Shown: piece after piece, positions 22,286 through 28,506 of the stretch
How positions within the stretch are numbered: position 1 is the stretch's first letter
Layout of the letters: each line of letters begins with the position of its first letter
From: a virus
Virus record (IMG/VR): IMGVR_UViG_3300008267_000003
Span: 64,001-128,000 of that record
Strand: one strand, 5' to 3'
Length of the DNA: 64,000 nt
Notes under the pieces: generated by a model
What the model saw: the letters and a program-made list of their open reading frames with translations, nothing else
The model's database searches: none
Told to the model about the DNA's origin: nothing
Translations under genes and position numbers: made by a program

Positions 22286-22380
22286 CCATATTGAAGCACA
22301 CTGATCCTCAAGGGCACGAGAGGTGGTGTAACCCTAATGCCGGGTGAAGGTTCGAATCCAGCAGTGTGTTTCAATATGGT
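22286..22380 (+). ncRNA. Long-stem hairpin element 1
   Basis: 19-bp stem ACCATATTGAAGCACACTG/CAGTGTGTTTCAATATGGT; loop contains T-loop-like GGTTCGAATCC. Confidence 0.6.
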
Positions 22381-22589
22381 AACCCAACTAACTGTGATAC
22401 CAGTACGACATGCTGGGTAGCGGTTATCATAACCAGAATAGTAAAACAGAAACATTCTCTGTGATGTGTGCCTTGCTAGGAAACACAGGTACTTACCCTG
22501 TGTGATAGAATTAGCATTGAGGAGTCACGAAAGTTGAGATAGCGTGAGGGAGACTCAGCATGTTTCTGTTTGGCAAGATTTTGAAATAA

Positions 22590-22970
22590 AACAGAAATGT
22601 GCGTTCTGTCTCTGCAGAGAGTTCAGCAAGGGTTTGATGCGGTAATGACTTCGACATCATGTAACAGTCAGTTCCTTGTTAGCATTAATATTAATTTAGA
22701 GTAACTGAGGCGCTTCACCTCAGGGCGACCAGTGTGAGCCTGCTTTAAGTAGGACAGCTCGCAGAATCAAAGAAGCAAGAATCCGGTTACTACTTCCCTG
22801 AAAGTAGCGTTTGATTAGCGATAGAGATCCGGTGGCAGAAAACCGTTAGCGAGGCAACCCCTCAGACTCTGATAGGCAGTATCCCTCTGCACACAGACAA
22901 CAGAATAAAAGGGATGGACAGGGTAACAACTCGAGGGAGGGGCTAGCGTGGAAAACAGTAGCCTCCCACT
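22590..22970 (+). ncRNA. Candidate large structured RNA, copy A (5' boundary approximate)
   Basis: Non-coding; shares ordered motifs and covarying stems with 28510-28880. Confidence 0.6.
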
Positions 22971-22976
22971 AATTCA

Positions 22977-23053
22977 GGGCCGGAAGCTCATTTGGTATGA
23001 GCAATCGACTCATAATCGATCGGCATTGGGTTCGAATCCCAAACGGCCCACCA
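22977..23053 (+). tRNA. tRNA with CAT anticodon (Ile2 or Met)
   Basis: Cloverleaf, ATCGA-CT-CAT-AA-TCGAT, encoded CCA. Confidence 0.85.
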
Positions 23054-23067
23054 CTATTGGAGATAAT

Positions 23068-23499
23068 ATGAAATCTTGGACATTACCTGTTAAAGAAACT
23101 GAGAACGGTGAACTTTACATTGAACTTAACGATGAAATACTTGAAGGTAGTGGATTCAAGATTGGTGACACATTACAATGGAAAGATCTTAAAGATGGAT
23201 CGTACAGCTTAACTAAAGCTGAGGGTGACCTATATGTTGTTGAAGGTATCAGCATGTTCCATATCAAATTTGTAGTTCGTGCAAAGCAAGCGGAACATGC
23301 ATGTGATGAAGTTGTTATGGATAATGGTTCATTGAAAGAGCTTAGCCAGAAACATATAGACTTTAACATTCTTGGAGCTCGAAAAATCTCTCAGGATGAG
23401 TACCTTAGAATGTTCGACGAGGATAATGACTATCTTCGTAGCTGGACAGATGAACAGAAGTTAGATCTGATTAACGAGATTGATTATGAAAGTGATTGA
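23068..23499 (+). CDS. Hypothetical protein with AbrB/MazE-like N-terminus
   Basis: GELYIEL..EIL...GFKIGDTLQW; GGAG ribosome-binding site; start moved past tRNA. Confidence 0.55.
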   Translation: MKSWTLPVKETENGELYIELNDEILEGSGFKIGDTLQWKDLKDGSYSLTKAEGDLYVVEGISMFHIKFVVRAKQAEHACDEVVMDNGSLKELSQKHIDFNILGARKISQDEYLRMFDEDNDYLRSWTDEQKLDLINEIDYESD

Positions 23500-23643
23500 A
23501 CGTTGGTACGAGAAGCTGCTAGGATATGACTGGCACTACAGACTCCGTAAACAATTTACGTTTACAGAGTGGATAATTGTGTTTGTTGTGGGCTTCTTTG
23601 CCATATACTTTTTCCTTGATTGGATGATTTACGGAGATCTATA

Positions 23644-24309
23644 ATGCGTGTATACATTGGACCATACAAGAATTGGGTCGGTCCTTTCCAGATTGCAAGA
23701 ACTATTTTGTTCTGGATGGACAGGGAAGACGATCGTGTGTACAAGTTTGGTGAGTGGCTTGCTGGTAAGGACGATTATTCTTTGTTGATGAGGGCTTGTC
23801 TTTGGGTTGAGAAGTTTAGAAAGCAAAAGATAAGCGTCAGAATTGACAATTATGATACATGGTCAATGGACCATACACTTGCTCATATCATCTTACCGAT
23901 GTTAAAACAGCTCAAGGAAACTAAGCATGGAGCTCCTAACGTTGATGATGATGATGTCCCTGAAGAACTGAAAAGCTCTTCGGCTCCACCTAGGGAAGAT
24001 GAGTGGGATATCGATGGTAACCATTTCAAGCGGTGGGATTGGGTACTTGATGAAATGATATTTGCCTTCGAGTGCAAACTTAATGATAGCTGGGACGATG
24101 AGTTCTGGACTGGTGAATGGGGCAAGTCTGAATTTGTAGAAACTGATGAAGAGCATCTTAATTCGTTGACAAATAAAATGGAAAAGTTGTATACTATGGT
24201 TAATTCAGGTAACCGTACCTGTGATTGGGAAGCGCGTCAGAAAGTTCAGAACCGTATAACCAATGGGTTCAAACTGTTTGGCAAATATTATGAAAATCTT
24301 TGGGATTGA
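23644..24309 (+). CDS. Conserved phage hypothetical protein
   Basis: IDNYDTWSMDHTLA...WDWVLDEMIFAF; GGAG ribosome-binding site. Confidence 0.65.
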   Translation: MRVYIGPYKNWVGPFQIARTILFWMDREDDRVYKFGEWLAGKDDYSLLMRACLWVEKFRKQKISVRIDNYDTWSMDHTLAHIILPMLKQLKETKHGAPNVDDDDVPEELKSSSAPPREDEWDIDGNHFKRWDWVLDEMIFAFECKLNDSWDDEFWTGEWGKSEFVETDEEHLNSLTNKMEKLYTMVNSGNRTCDWEARQKVQNRITNGFKLFGKYYENLWD

Positions 24310-24310
24310 T

Positions 24311-24841
24311 ATGAACAAATTTTATATTATGATGTTGGTAGTGGCTCTTGGTGCTTGTTCTAGTAATAAGATGACCAAAGTTCCAGAATCAACTGGTCTT
24401 GTTCCAGACTGGTTTGCATCCGAGCCTCAGAAAGACAGTACTGATGTTGTTGTTACTGCAACTGATATATCTAAGGACATGCAGTTTGCAATTGATAAAG
24501 CAATGTTAAATGCACGAGTAGAACTGGCTAACCGTATCAGTACTAAGGTAGAATCAATAGTTCGAGAATCTGTTATAGAAGATAGTTCATCCAAGGTTAA
24601 GGATGTAGAACGTGAGGTTGATCGAGTATCTAAACAAGTTACGGAACAGGTGCTATCAATGTATACACGTGAAAAACTTGTTGTGGTTAAAGAAGGTGGC
24701 GGTTATAGAGCTTATGTAATGCTCAAGCTATCTGAAGATCAAGGTCGTAAGCTGTTCAACAACGCTCGCAAAAGTTCTAAGAATAGAGAGGCTGCTTTTA
24801 GAGAACTTGATTCTGAAATTGAAAGATCAAGAAAAAACTAA
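24311..24841 (+). CDS. Lipoprotein (LPP20-like)
   Basis: Signal peptide with LGAC lipobox; VPDWF, A...A...ARVELA. Confidence 0.7.
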   Translation: MNKFYIMMLVVALGACSSNKMTKVPESTGLVPDWFASEPQKDSTDVVVTATDISKDMQFAIDKAMLNARVELANRISTKVESIVRESVIEDSSSKVKDVEREVDRVSKQVTEQVLSMYTREKLVVVKEGGGYRAYVMLKLSEDQGRKLFNNARKSSKNREAAFRELDSEIERSRKN

Positions 24842-24869
24842 AATATTTTTAGTAAAAGTTTGATTTACG

Positions 24870-24898
24870 TTGACATTTTTTATATATAGTAGTACGAT
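24870..24898 (+). promoter_or_regulatory. Sigma70 promoter of tRNA operon
   Basis: TTGACA-N17-TACGAT with AT-rich upstream sequence. Confidence 0.8.
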
Positions 24899-27152: not shown

Positions 27153-27162
27153 AAGTTTGAAT

Positions 27163-27247
27163 GGGAGTGCGGCGCAGTTAGAGAGGCGCGGCTGACTGTA
27201 AATCAGTTCTTTCGGGTGAGTAGGTGCGAATCCTTCCACTCCCACCA
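27163..27247 (+). tRNA. tRNA-Tyr(GTA)
   Basis: Class II cloverleaf, CCA. Confidence 0.88.
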
Positions 27248-27251
27248 ATTT

Positions 27252-27326
27252 ACCTTCGTAGCTCAGTGGTAGAGCATTCGCTTGATAAGCGAAGGGTCAG
27301 TGGATCGTTCCCACTCGAAGGTACCA
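27252..27326 (+). tRNA. tRNA-Ile(GAT)
   Basis: Cloverleaf, CCA. Confidence 0.9.
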
Positions 27327-27335
27327 AAGGATATT

Positions 27336-27824
27336 ATGAAAAAATTACTTTTTATTTTAATGTTGTTACCATCCATTGCAAGTGCTTGTGACAGTTACGT
27401 TATTGGATTCAAAGGCATTAACAATGTATTTGATGATAACGCTTTTAGACAGTATGCAATGAAGTATAAAGCATGTTCATTAGCTTACAGTTGGAATCAA
27501 GTGCATACAGCTGTTAAATTTATTAACAGTACTAAGAAGAAGTATCAGCTGTATGGATTCAGTAAGGGCGCAGAAAGTATAGGACAGGTTTTAAAACAAG
27601 TTAAACGCAAACCATACCACGTAGTAACAATTGGTGCTTACCATACTGCGAATGTTAACTATAGAGTGTACGGTGTGTCAACGCAGAACTATTTTGACGG
27701 CTCGGGAAGTAGGAACAGGTCCCCGGGCACTCATATAAGAGGAGTAGATCACGAAGACATGCAAAGACACGTTAATAGTTACTATTTTGGTATCAAACAA
27801 TGCCAGCGGAGAAAGGGCTGTTGA
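27336..27824 (+). CDS. Secreted protein, alpha/beta-hydrolase-like
   Basis: Signal peptide MKKLLFILMLLPSIASA; GFSKG (GxSxG) motif. Confidence 0.6.
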   Translation: MKKLLFILMLLPSIASACDSYVIGFKGINNVFDDNAFRQYAMKYKACSLAYSWNQVHTAVKFINSTKKKYQLYGFSKGAESIGQVLKQVKRKPYHVVTIGAYHTANVNYRVYGVSTQNYFDGSGSRNRSPGTHIRGVDHEDMQRHVNSYYFGIKQCQRRKGC

Positions 27825-27849
27825 CTTATTTTTGTGCTTGAGAGATAAT
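27821..27849 (+). promoter_or_regulatory. Sigma70-type promoter
   Basis: TTGACT-N17-GATAAT. Confidence 0.65.
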
Positions 27850-27880
27850 ACATTTGTAACCATTGATAAAGGATAACATT

Positions 27881-28303
27881 ATGAAATTAGCTGCCGGTAA
27901 GTATGTGATTGCAGACCCCTGCTACATCCTCAATGAGGAAGTGTACTTCAGACTGCTGAAAGAAACCAACTACTTCATGTACGAAGCTGTTGAACGTGGT
28001 GGTGTAATGTCAGACAGTGAGACGGGAAAGTTCTTTGCTGTATTCAGTACCAAGTATGGTGATGGCACATACAGGGATGGTAAGGGATTCAAGTATGGTG
28101 TAGATGCAGGTTGCATTGCATGTATCCCTGCTGAGATGTGTGATCTGAAAGAAGACCGTGAGTACATCAACGAAGTAACTTTTGCTAGAGACTTCGAGGT
28201 ACGGTACGAGGATGGTTTGATTATATTTGGAGATGTAATTATTAATACTGATCCAGATGATTTTTATGATGATGAGGAAGAAAGCTACGAAGATGTAGCG
28301 TAA
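27881..28303 (+). CDS. Conserved phage hypothetical protein
   Basis: YVIADPCY, YGDGTY, GVDAGCI motifs. Confidence 0.65.
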   Translation: MKLAAGKYVIADPCYILNEEVYFRLLKETNYFMYEAVERGGVMSDSETGKFFAVFSTKYGDGTYRDGKGFKYGVDAGCIACIPAEMCDLKEDREYINEVTFARDFEVRYEDGLIIFGDVIINTDPDDFYDDEEESYEDVA

Positions 28304-28312
28304 GGTTTTAGT

Positions 28313-28387
28313 GCACCGTTCGTCTATCGGTTAGGACATTGCCCTTTCACGGCAGTAAGAGGAGTTCGATTCTCCTACGGTGTACCA
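28313..28387 (+). tRNA. tRNA-Glu(TTC)
   Basis: Cloverleaf, CCA. Confidence 0.92.
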
Positions 28388-28506
28388 TTTGATATGCTGG
28401 TTGTAAGCCATGGGCCGCAAGCCTGAGTAACTATCACAATATCTGGTTATCTCGAGTAACTCCAGTGAGTCGATAGCAAATAGTGCAGCCAGCATTTCAA
28501 ATGGTA
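28383..28506 (+). ncRNA. Long-stem hairpin element 4
   Basis: 23-bp stem TACCATTTGATATGCTGGTTGTA/TGCAGCCAGCATTTCAAATGGTA with one mismatch. Confidence 0.6.

What the first reader, a model, noticed from the sequence alone, without database searches (positions are those of the whole stretch)
22286..28506. Family of four long-stem hairpins, three of whose stems begin in the CCA end of a tRNA
Elements at 22286-22380, 25187-25260, 26748-26836 and 28383-28506 have 18-23-bp near-perfect stems with related ends ((A)CCAT[A/T]...[A/T]ATGG(T)) but unrelated 38-78-nt loops. In elements 2-4 the stem's first bases are the CCA of tRNA-Ser, tRNA-Lys and tRNA-Glu, so the precursor's CCA is base-paired. Element 2 also overlaps the first GG of the next tRNA. 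Element 1 follows a small hairpin ending ACCA and has a T-loop-like GGTTCGAATCC in its loop. G-U pairs suggest RNA-level selection. Possible roles (inference): RNase III processing stalks, carriers releasing variable small RNAs, Y-RNA-like decoys, or tRNA-targeting miniature mobile elements.
Basis: partly seen in the sequence, partly recalled or inferred. Interest (0 to 1): 0.7.

Follow-up and report, generated by a model that had tools for sequence, protein, structure and literature searches.

The report
Phage hairpin cassettes anchored on tRNA CCA
The four hairpins are real members of a large, uncatalogued family of RNA hairpins that uncultured T4-like water phages place directly on the CCA end of some tRNAs and in the cut-out spacer of their two-piece tmRNA; a nearly constant 20-base-pair stem holds ever-changing inserts, and what it does is still unproven.

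Summary
Observation confirmed. The four hairpins are ranks 2-5 of all hairpins in the 162-kb phage genome. Rank 1 is the intervening segment of the phage's own permuted tmRNA, and it carries the same stem core.

The family is widespread and seems phage-specific. A strict two-arm pattern hits at least 120 IMG/VR contigs, against one tiny tRNA-array contig in 185,579 prokaryote genomes. BLAST found no match in 50,697 deposited phage records, and Rfam gave no match.

In about 2.1 Mb of related contigs I found 217 copies, 121 of them starting inside a tRNA's ACCA. They favour Lys (31 of 42 genes), Glu (20 of 39) and Gln (12 of 29).

Pairing is maintained: 94% of cells are paired and 11 of 20 pairs show double changes. 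G.U pairs outnumber A.C on the tRNA-sense strand, so selection acts on a folded single strand, most likely the transcript.

Inserts are hypervariable and GC-rich, and a few are conserved. E1's insert resembles a tRNA body.

Best reading (about 0.45): co-transcribed, excised clamp-stem cassettes whose roughly 20-bp AU-rich stem is a dsRNA processing and stability handle, probably cut by host RNase III. The nuclease and any payload function are inferred.

MITE, Y RNA, terminator and promoter readings are not supported. The scan found this same family earlier on other phage DNA (e1-5410472, e1-5803550).

The parts
22285..22380 (+). Element 1: clamp-stem hairpin (arms 22285-22303 / 22362-22380). 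Its 58-nt insert has a degenerate tRNA-body look, with the T-loop motif GGTTCGAATCC at 22349-22359. It is not behind a detected tRNA; it follows a 6-bp mini-hairpin at 22267-22287.
   Evidence: covariance model R1 scores 58.2 bits on + against 41.9 on - although E1 was not in the seed; tRNA-body-like inserts
25100..25189 (+). tRNA-Ser(UGA), whose terminal CCA (25187-25189) forms the first pairs of element 2
25187..25260 (+). Element 2: clamp-stem hairpin with an 18-bp perfect stem and a 38-nt insert. Its last two bases are G1 and G2 of tRNA-Ser(GCU) (25259-25348).
26676..26752 (+). tRNA-Lys(UUU) with G1.U72. U72, A73 and CCA are the first five bases of element 3.
26748..26836 (+). Element 3: the type-1 clamp (UACCAUAUACAAACACAUUC / GAGUGUGUUUCUAUAUGGUA) with a C.C mismatch at bp 8 after C74 and a U.G wobble at bp 16. 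Its 49-nt insert is conserved at 92% in two other phages in a context without CCA. tRNA-Gln starts 5 nt downstream.
28313..28387 (+). tRNA-Glu(UUC) with G1.U72, whose UACCA starts element 4
28383..28506 (+). Element 4: the type-2 clamp (ACCAUUUG...), which is the variant commonly found behind tRNA-Glu in relatives. The stem is 21-23 bp with a U.U mismatch at bp 9 and a U.G at bp 17; the insert is 78 nt.

Best explanation
The hairpins are RNA-level 'clamp-stem cassettes' in the phage's stable-RNA operons. Each is transcribed with the tRNAs. Its 18-23-bp AU-rich stem starts at, or one or two bases before, the CCA of the upstream RNA (a tRNA or the tmRNA acceptor piece), and it closes around a freely replaceable insert.

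The cassette is removed from the precursor in the same way as the tmRNA intervening segment, of which it is a sequence relative. The two-turn stem, with its conserved mismatch at bp 8-9 and its conserved U.G at bp 16-17, most likely serves as a double-strand-specific processing and stability handle. It would be cut by a dsRNA endonuclease, for which host RNase III is the obvious candidate. The short AU-only remainder on the tRNA then melts, and exonucleases trim it back to CCA.

Shown here: family membership, conservation, covariation, strand asymmetry, anchoring on CCA, and identity with the tmRNA spacer core.

Inferred: co-transcription, excision from tRNA precursors, the nuclease, and the cleavage position.
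For: Same core in the tmRNA spacer. In the phage's permuted tmRNA the stretch between CCA and the 5' end of the coding piece carries the same core (GAAGUACA/UGUACUUC here; GAAACACAUU/AGUGUGUUUC in L006; variants in L004 and L038/L039; AAACACAUU/AAUGUGUUU in the cultured pelagiphage Mosig). The tmRNA literature states that this segment is absent from mature tmRNA and is removed by tRNA-processing enzymes (PMC11915505).

Anchoring. Of 217 physical copies in about 2.1 Mb of related contigs, 121 start inside a tRNA's ACCA.

Pairing. In 28 tRNA-anchored copies 94% of cells are paired and 11 of 20 pairs have changes on both sides. None of 500 shuffles reach these values, and slid controls give 30-54%. 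Where no CCA is needed the basal pairs covary, for example CUA...UAG and UCA...UGA.

Strand. Read on the tRNA-sense strand, G.U against A.C is 142:77 in anchored copies and 144:34 in unanchored ones. Per hairpin, G.U exceeds A.C in 117 and the reverse holds in 16. Model R1 scores 13-25 bits better on the sense strand.

Stem length. Stems cluster at 18-23 bp, about two helical turns.

Other roles excluded. No promoter or U-tract terminator falls on the arms.

Nuclease source. The phage has no RNase III of its own, so a host enzyme would have to act.
Against: No cleavage or end-mapping data exist, so RNase III is only an inference from geometry.

The stem is conserved in sequence as well as in pairing, which RNase III alone does not require. 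That hints at a specific partner.

The cassette is dispensable for a given tRNA. 7 of 30 tRNA-Lys(UUU) and 19 of 39 tRNA-Glu genes lack it, and these often abut the next tRNA. Most tRNAs in the arrays mature with 2-10-nt spacers. The hairpin is therefore not needed for 3' maturation as such.

Inserts are 10 points richer in GC than the background, and a few are conserved with compensatory changes. This suggests payloads rather than junk.

G.T tolerance would equally fit a fold in single-stranded DNA.
Confidence: 0.45

Rival explanations
1. Small-RNA display system. The function lies in the inserts ('heads'). The constant clamp is a scaffold that gives each released RNA a blunt, exonuclease-resistant double-stranded end and a common docking site for one phage or host protein. 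tRNA processing (a cut after CCA upstream, RNase P at the next tRNA downstream) only serves to liberate it.
For: Insert GC is 49.5%, against 39.7% for the background and 31% for the stems. E3's insert is 92% conserved in two other phages, with compensatory changes in its first helix, although the clamp base differs and no CCA is involved. A subgroup of 58-66-nt inserts has a T-arm 3-6 nt before the 3' arm, i.e. the size and layout of a tRNA body; E1 belongs to it. Cassettes are dispensable for the tRNA in front of them. The stem sequence itself is conserved, which suggests a specific binding partner.
Against: 351 inserts fall into 273 similarity clusters, 211 of them singletons. Inserts fold no better than dinucleotide shuffles (mean z -0.33 against -0.32 for controls). 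The exact E3 head motif occurs in only 2 other IMG/VR contigs. No partner protein is known.
Confidence: 0.25
2. CCA masking. The hairpin exists to keep the discriminator and CCA of particular tRNAs (Lys, Glu, Gln) base-paired in the precursor. That would delay their aminoacylation or RNase P processing, or hide the 3' end or the precursor from a host nuclease, until the trailer is removed.
For: Strong isotype bias: Lys(UUU) 23 of 30, Lys(CUU) 8 of 12, Glu 20 of 39 and Gln 12 of 29, most others at 17% or less, and His, Tyr and Asn at 0. These three isotypes carry U72 in this phage clade, as G1.U72 or U1.U72, so the hairpin can extend into the acceptor stem. The C74-G, C75-G and A76-U pairs are invariant in 28 of 28 copies.
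Against: About 40% of copies are not on a detected tRNA end and keep the basal pairs without CCA. The bias may simply reflect descent of tRNA-plus-hairpin units. No tested mechanism exists.
Confidence: 0.12
3. DNA-level element. The hairpins are either a MITE-like mobile element with terminal inverted repeats that targets tRNA 3' ends, or an attC-like folded single-strand recombination site that shuffles tRNA and RNA cassettes.
For: The ends are conserved inverted repeats and the centres are variable. tRNA order is heavily shuffled among relatives. The same insert cluster occurs behind different tRNAs in 21 of 62 multi-member clusters. Whole-unit presence or absence is seen behind tRNA-Glu (L015 and L058 against L069 and L013). 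G.T tolerance also fits folded single-stranded DNA.
Against: There are no target-site duplications at the four window copies. No two copies in the genome share internal sequence. The phage has no tyrosine integrase and no Y1 transposase. The strand asymmetry argues against a purely double-stranded TIR. Every copy lies in, and co-oriented with, stable-RNA operons.
Confidence: 0.1

Closest known systems
Intervening segment (IVS) of circularly permuted two-piece tmRNA genes (Keiler, Shapiro & Williams 2000; Sharkady & Williams 2004; PMC11915505); phage examples in Melnitz and Mosig (PMC9004378)
   Same: It begins right after CCA, folds back onto the acceptor end, and is discarded during maturation. 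In this phage clade, and in Mosig, it carries the same stem core as the tRNA-linked hairpins.
   Different: The four window copies sit behind ordinary tRNAs or behind no tRNA at all. The stem sequence is conserved across hundreds of phages. Such a link between tRNA trailers and the tmRNA IVS was not found in the papers I could search.
RNase III processing stalks (leader-trailer helices around 16S/23S rRNA; phage T7 early-RNA sites) - from established knowledge
   Same: A helix of about 20 bp with one internal imperfection, set inside a polycistronic precursor of stable RNAs, that brackets a segment to be cut out.
   Different: These are local hairpins, not long-range helices. They are AU-rich with a conserved sequence. 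No cleavage has been shown, and the phage encodes no RNase III.
tRNA-linked pre-miRNA hairpins of murine gammaherpesvirus 68, released by tRNase Z - from memory
   Same: A viral hairpin fused directly to the 3' end of a tRNA-like unit, so that tRNA processing liberates it.
   Different: That is a eukaryotic virus with pol III units and no encoded CCA, and its payload is a miRNA. Here the stem is constant and the loop is variable.
Correia elements and other MITEs whose inverted repeats are cut by RNase III in transcripts (Neisseria) - from memory
   Same: Short elements with roughly 20-26-nt inverted ends that form RNA hairpins inside transcripts.
   Different: Here there is no target duplication, no shared interior, no transposase, a phage-only distribution, and strand-asymmetric G.U pairs.
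Phage T4 species 1 and 2 RNAs (rnaC, rnaD) - from memory
   Same: Small non-tRNA RNAs embedded in and co-processed with a T4-type phage tRNA cluster.
   Different: T4 has no shared clamp stem and no CCA overlap. No sequence relation was tested.
Bacterial Y RNA / YrlA
   Same: E1-type copies combine a long terminal stem with a tRNA-like head containing a T-arm.
   Different: There is no Rfam match at E<=1 and no Ro/TROVE gene. Most family members have no tRNA-like head.

Membership tests
tmRNA intervening segment (permuted ssrA) | Lies between the CCA of the acceptor piece and the 5' end of the coding piece | tested here: not met
   The four window elements follow tRNA-Ser, tRNA-Lys, tRNA-Glu or no tRNA. 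Only the fifth genomic copy, at genome 6269-6335 outside the window, meets this.
tmRNA intervening segment (permuted ssrA) | Absent from the mature RNA | not testable with these tools
   This needs RNA end mapping.
RNase III processing stalk | Near-perfect double-stranded helix of about two turns (about 20 bp) | tested here: met
   Stems are 18-23 bp. 94% of cells are paired in 28 relatives.
RNase III processing stalk | Staggered cleavage of both strands by RNase III, leaving 2-nt 3' overhangs | not testable with these tools
   No transcript data are available, and the phage has no rnc gene.
MITE / Correia-like element | Target-site duplication flanking the inverted repeats | tested here: not met
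   The flanks differ: aacgc/aaccc, ttcca/agaat, gcacc/tctat and cggtg/acata.
MITE / Correia-like element | Several copies per genome sharing internal sequence | tested here: not met
   The loops of the five copies in the genome are unrelated.
MITE / Correia-like element | A cognate transposase somewhere in the host replicon or population | tested here: inconclusive
   The phage has no Y1 transposase and no tyrosine integrase. Other transposase families were not searched.
Y RNA / YrlA | Match to the Rfam covariance models | tested here: not met
   cmscan at E<=1 over 20000-33000 returned only tRNAs and sub-threshold chance hits.
Y RNA / YrlA | Ro60/Rsr (TROVE) partner gene | tested here: not met
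   PF05731 is absent from the 162-kb genome. The host is unknown.
Intrinsic terminator | GC-rich stem followed by a U tract | tested here: not met
   Stems are 31% GC and have no T run after them. The consensus scan places no terminator on the arms.
Integron attC site | Associated integron integrase | tested here: not met
   There is no PF00589 match in the genome.

The most novel reading that the evidence does not exclude
The clamp stem is a phage-specific universal plug-in socket. One conserved double-stranded handle, read by one dedicated nuclease or binding protein, lets these phages express and release hundreds of different small RNAs, including tRNA-body mimics such as E1, from their tRNA and tmRNA operons. 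That would be a modular small-RNA (possibly decoy or anti-defence) system without a described counterpart in bacteria or phages.
Probability: 0.25. Interest if true: 0.85.

Novelty: new variant of a known kind. Interest (0 to 1): 0.62.

Why it matters
Phage tRNA arrays are usually read as plain strings of tRNA genes. Here a conserved, phage-only RNA hairpin with swappable contents is built onto the functional 3' end of particular tRNAs, and it doubles as the cut-out spacer of a two-piece tmRNA.

If it is a processing stalk, it shows how these abundant freshwater and marine T4-like phages organise stable-RNA maturation, and it explains how their permuted tmRNA is split.

If the inserts are payloads, it is a new way for viruses to make many small RNAs from one scaffold.

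Either way it is a well-defined, easily synthesised substrate for RNase III, RNase P and end-mapping experiments, and a new candidate family for Rfam.

Tried and rejected
- Rfam at E<=1 gave only tRNAs. E2 hit miRNA-precursor models on the minus strand at 27-30 bits, against gathering scores of 65-90, which is chance for any hairpin.
- BLAST of the region, of E3 and of a consensus-like copy against 50,697 phage records found no hairpin match.
- Model R1 on cultured pelagiphage Mosig gave only a 13.6-bit hit. Mosig has the motif only in its tmRNA spacer.
- A Pfam scan of ten neighbouring ORFs found no RNA-processing proteins.
- RNase III, Ro/TROVE, tyrosine integrase and Y1 transposase are all absent from the phage.
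- My idea that unanchored copies always follow a mini-helix plus NCCA first failed, because reverse-strand duplicates contaminated the set. After correction the enrichment is only modest: 37% against 23% for helices of 5 bp or more. I do not build on it.
- The idea that inserts are unusually stable folds is rejected, since z-scores equal those of controls.
- The idea that inserts are decayed tRNA genes holds for only 10 of 186 and 22 of 351.
- Promoter and terminator readings fail, with no consensus sites on the arms.
- Literature searches for phage tRNA-trailer hairpins found nothing relevant. The Keiler 2000 and Sharkady 2004 papers are not held.

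
Full report
**What the window is.** It is bases 64001-128000 of a 162,011-bp IMG/VR virus record with direct terminal repeats. It carries 24 tRNA genes on the + strand between 22977 and 31526. No close relative exists among deposited phage genomes. Proteins and the tmRNA point to the aquatic T4-like (Kyanoviridae-type) myophages that include pelagiphage Mosig and OM43 phage Melnitz (PMC9004378).

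**Observation.** In my scan of the whole genome they rank 2-5 of all hairpins with loops of 15-220 nt. Each folds far better than its dinucleotide shuffles (z -3.5 to -5.1). Elements 2, 3 and 4 start in the CCA, or the U72-A73-CCA, of tRNA-Ser(UGA), tRNA-Lys(UUU) and tRNA-Glu(UUC). Element 2 ends in G1G2 of tRNA-Ser(GCU). Element 1 is not behind a detected tRNA. It overlaps a 6-bp mini-hairpin and has GGTTCGAATCC at 22349-22359 in its loop.

**The fifth copy.** The top-ranked hairpin of the genome lies outside the window, at genome 6258-6342. ARAGORN calls a circularly permuted tmRNA at genome 6176-6544 (tag ANDSEYALAA), and this hairpin is its intervening segment. It starts right after the acceptor piece's CCA and ends at the 5' G of the coding piece. 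Its stem (GAAGUACA / UGUACUUC) is the stem of element 2. Permuted tmRNAs of relatives carry CCA-GAAACACAUU...AGUGUGUUUCUGAU-GGG (L006), with variants in L004 and L038/L039. Cultured Mosig has CCA-UAAACACAUUAUGG...AAUGUGUUUAUG-GGGG. This is the core of elements 1 and 3. The tmRNA spacer is known to be removed from the precursor by tRNA-processing enzymes (PMC11915505). I made this link before consulting earlier notes of the scan.

**Family and distribution.**
- Using the phosphoesterase gene that sits inside the tRNA array, I fetched 80 related IMG/VR loci at 65-75% protein identity. Nearly all hold tRNA arrays and seven hold permuted tmRNAs.
- They contain dozens of hairpins with the consensus N-ACCAUAU[UA][GA]AA[AG]CACAUU, a loop of 22-197 nt, then AGUGUGUUUC[AU]AUAUGGU.
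104 of 106 occurrences in the 80 loci examined had the complementary 5' arm upstream, and 58 sat on an ARAGORN tRNA end.
- A strict two-arm pattern hit at least 120 stretches in IMG/VR. It hit only one among 185,579 prokaryote species genomes: a 1.5-kb contig with nine tRNAs binned into a Ca. Planktophila MAG, with the hairpin on tRNA-Lys. That contig is most likely a phage fragment.
- BLAST found no copy in 50,697 deposited phage records. Rfam has no matching family.

**Anchoring and isotype bias.**
- After I removed reverse-strand duplicates, which had first inflated my counts, there are 217 physical hairpins in about 2.1 Mb. 121 of them start inside a tRNA's ACCA.
- Among 997 distinct tRNA genes of the first 80 loci, a hairpin follows Lys(UUU) in 23 of 30, Lys(CUU) in 8 of 12, Glu(UUC) in 20 of 39, Gln(UUG) in 12 of 29 and Arg(ACG) in 6 of 24.
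- Most other anticodons are at 17% or less (Arg(CCU) is 3 of 4), and His, Tyr and Asn are at 0.
- In this clade Lys and Glu mostly have G1.U72 and Gln has U1.U72, whether or not the hairpin is present. I cannot separate function from shared descent here.
- The cassette is dispensable. The same tRNA often lacks it and then abuts the next tRNA.

**Stem constraints.**
- In an alignment of 28 tRNA-anchored copies (A1), the 20-pair helix is paired in 94% of cells and 11 pairs show changes on both sides. None of 500 shuffles reaches the observed values, and sliding the partner by 1-3 columns drops pairing to 30-54%.
- Two imperfections are conserved. There is a mismatch (A.C or C.C) at bp 8 after C74 in half the copies, and a U.G at bp 16 in 20 of 28. 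Element 4, a second stem subtype typical of tRNA-Glu, has the analogous U.U at bp 9 and U.G at bp 17.
- Read on the tRNA-sense strand, G.U outnumbers A.C 142:77 in anchored copies and 144:34 in unanchored ones. Per hairpin the split is 117 to 16.
- Model R1 scores elements 1-3 at 55-65 bits on + against 40-42 on -. This includes element 1, which was not in the seed.
- Selection therefore acts on a folded single strand of the tRNA sense, not on a double-stranded inverted repeat.
- Unanchored copies keep the basal pairs by covariation (CUA...UAG, UCA...UGA). The full two-turn length matters, not the CCA as such.

**Inserts.**
- They are hypervariable. 351 loops of 30 nt or more fall into 273 similarity clusters, 211 of them singletons. 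21 of 62 multi-member clusters occur behind different upstream RNAs.
- They are GC-rich, at 49.5% against 39.7% for the background and 31% for the stems. They fold no better than shuffles.
- Few are recognisable tRNA fragments (10 of 186). However, 22 carry a T-loop motif. In at least 13 of these it lies 3-6 nt before the 3' arm, mostly in loops of about 58-66 nt, which is the layout of a tRNA body whose acceptor stem is replaced by the clamp. Element 1 is a degenerate member.
- Element 3's insert recurs at 92% identity in two other phages, with compensatory changes in its first helix, in a clamp without CCA placed after an ORF.

**What it is not.**
- The arms carry no sigma-70-like promoter and no U-tract terminator.
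- There are no target-site duplications and no shared interiors within the genome.
- The phage has no integrase, Y1 transposase, RNase III or Ro protein.
- The ten neighbouring ORFs hold no RNA-processing domains.

**Mechanism.** The best-supported reading is an RNA-level clamp-stem cassette that is co-transcribed with the stable RNAs and excised. The argument is by homology with the tmRNA spacer, where excision is obligatory. It also rests on geometry. A two-turn AU-rich helix with one internal imperfection is the classical substrate of a double-strand-specific endonuclease. The AU-only basal third would melt after a cut, leaving a short tail that exonucleases trim to the encoded CCA. RNase III of the unknown host is the obvious candidate, but this step is pure inference.

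Three facts keep a payload or scaffold model alive: the sequence conservation of the stem, the dispensability of the cassette for a given tRNA, and the GC-rich, sometimes conserved inserts. CCA masking of Lys, Glu and Gln tRNAs, and a single-stranded-DNA recombination site, are weaker rivals.

**Relation to earlier notes of this scan.** After my own analysis I found that the same family had been reported from other phage genomes (e1-5410472, e1-5803550), with the same conclusion on family, tmRNA link and unknown function. My results agree and add the following:
- the isotype bias;
- the U72 observation;
- the unbiased strand-asymmetry count;
- the contrast between phage and prokaryote collections;
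- the tRNA-body-like subgroup to which element 1 belongs.

Noticed in passing
window 22574-22688, 22782-22962, 28522-28668, 28672-28881: The long non-coding stretches after elements 1 and 4 are mosaics of conserved RNA-like modules. 22782-22962 is 84-92% identical in L004, L006, L069, L048 and L054, well above the roughly 70% protein identity of these phages, and it is always wedged tightly between tRNAs. 28672-28881 shares its 3' end with 22782-22962. There is no Rfam match.
   Followed up: partly
genome 6176-6544 (57.5 kb before the window; locus L082): A circularly permuted two-piece tmRNA gene (tag ANDSEYALAA). Its spacer is the longest hairpin in the genome and a member of the same family.
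   Followed up: yes
window 26378-26472: ARAGORN calls a 95-nt tRNA-Ile(UAU) with the anticodon at position 31. Rfam's best hit there is tRNA-Sec at 29 bits, below its threshold. It is an unusually long tRNA-like gene.
   Followed up: no
L012, L019, L024, L028, L030, L045, L078: Several relatives encode tRNAs with a CUA anticodon (called 'Pyl'), and L045 encodes one with UUA ('Stop'). These are possible suppressor tRNAs, which hints at stop-codon reassignment or read-through in part of this phage clade.
   Followed up: no
L204 (CAZQNP010000058.1, 1478 bp, Ca. Planktophila MAG): The only prokaryote-collection hit to the two-arm pattern is a 1.5-kb contig made of nine tRNA genes, with the hairpin on tRNA-Lys. 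It looks like a phage tRNA-array fragment binned into an actinobacterial MAG. It could be mis-binning or a host hint.
   Followed up: partly
tRNA-Lys 26676-26752, tRNA-Glu 28313-28387; relatives: In this phage clade tRNA-Lys and tRNA-Glu mostly have a G1.U72 wobble and tRNA-Gln a U1.U72 mismatch at the end of the acceptor stem. These are the three isotypes that most often carry the hairpin.
   Followed up: partly
L048:4100-4860: A cluster of several clamp arms in which the longest helix (32 bp) forms between the 3' arm of one hairpin and the 5' arm of the next, bracketing about 137 nt. Alternative 'outward' pairings between neighbouring cassettes are therefore possible.
   Followed up: no
window 24311-24838, 29332-30117, 30281-30646: The ORFs interspersed with the tRNAs include an LPP20-like lipoprotein (weak hit), a D-Ala-D-Ala carboxypeptidase (Peptidase_S11, 1e-36) and a cupin.
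   Followed up: no
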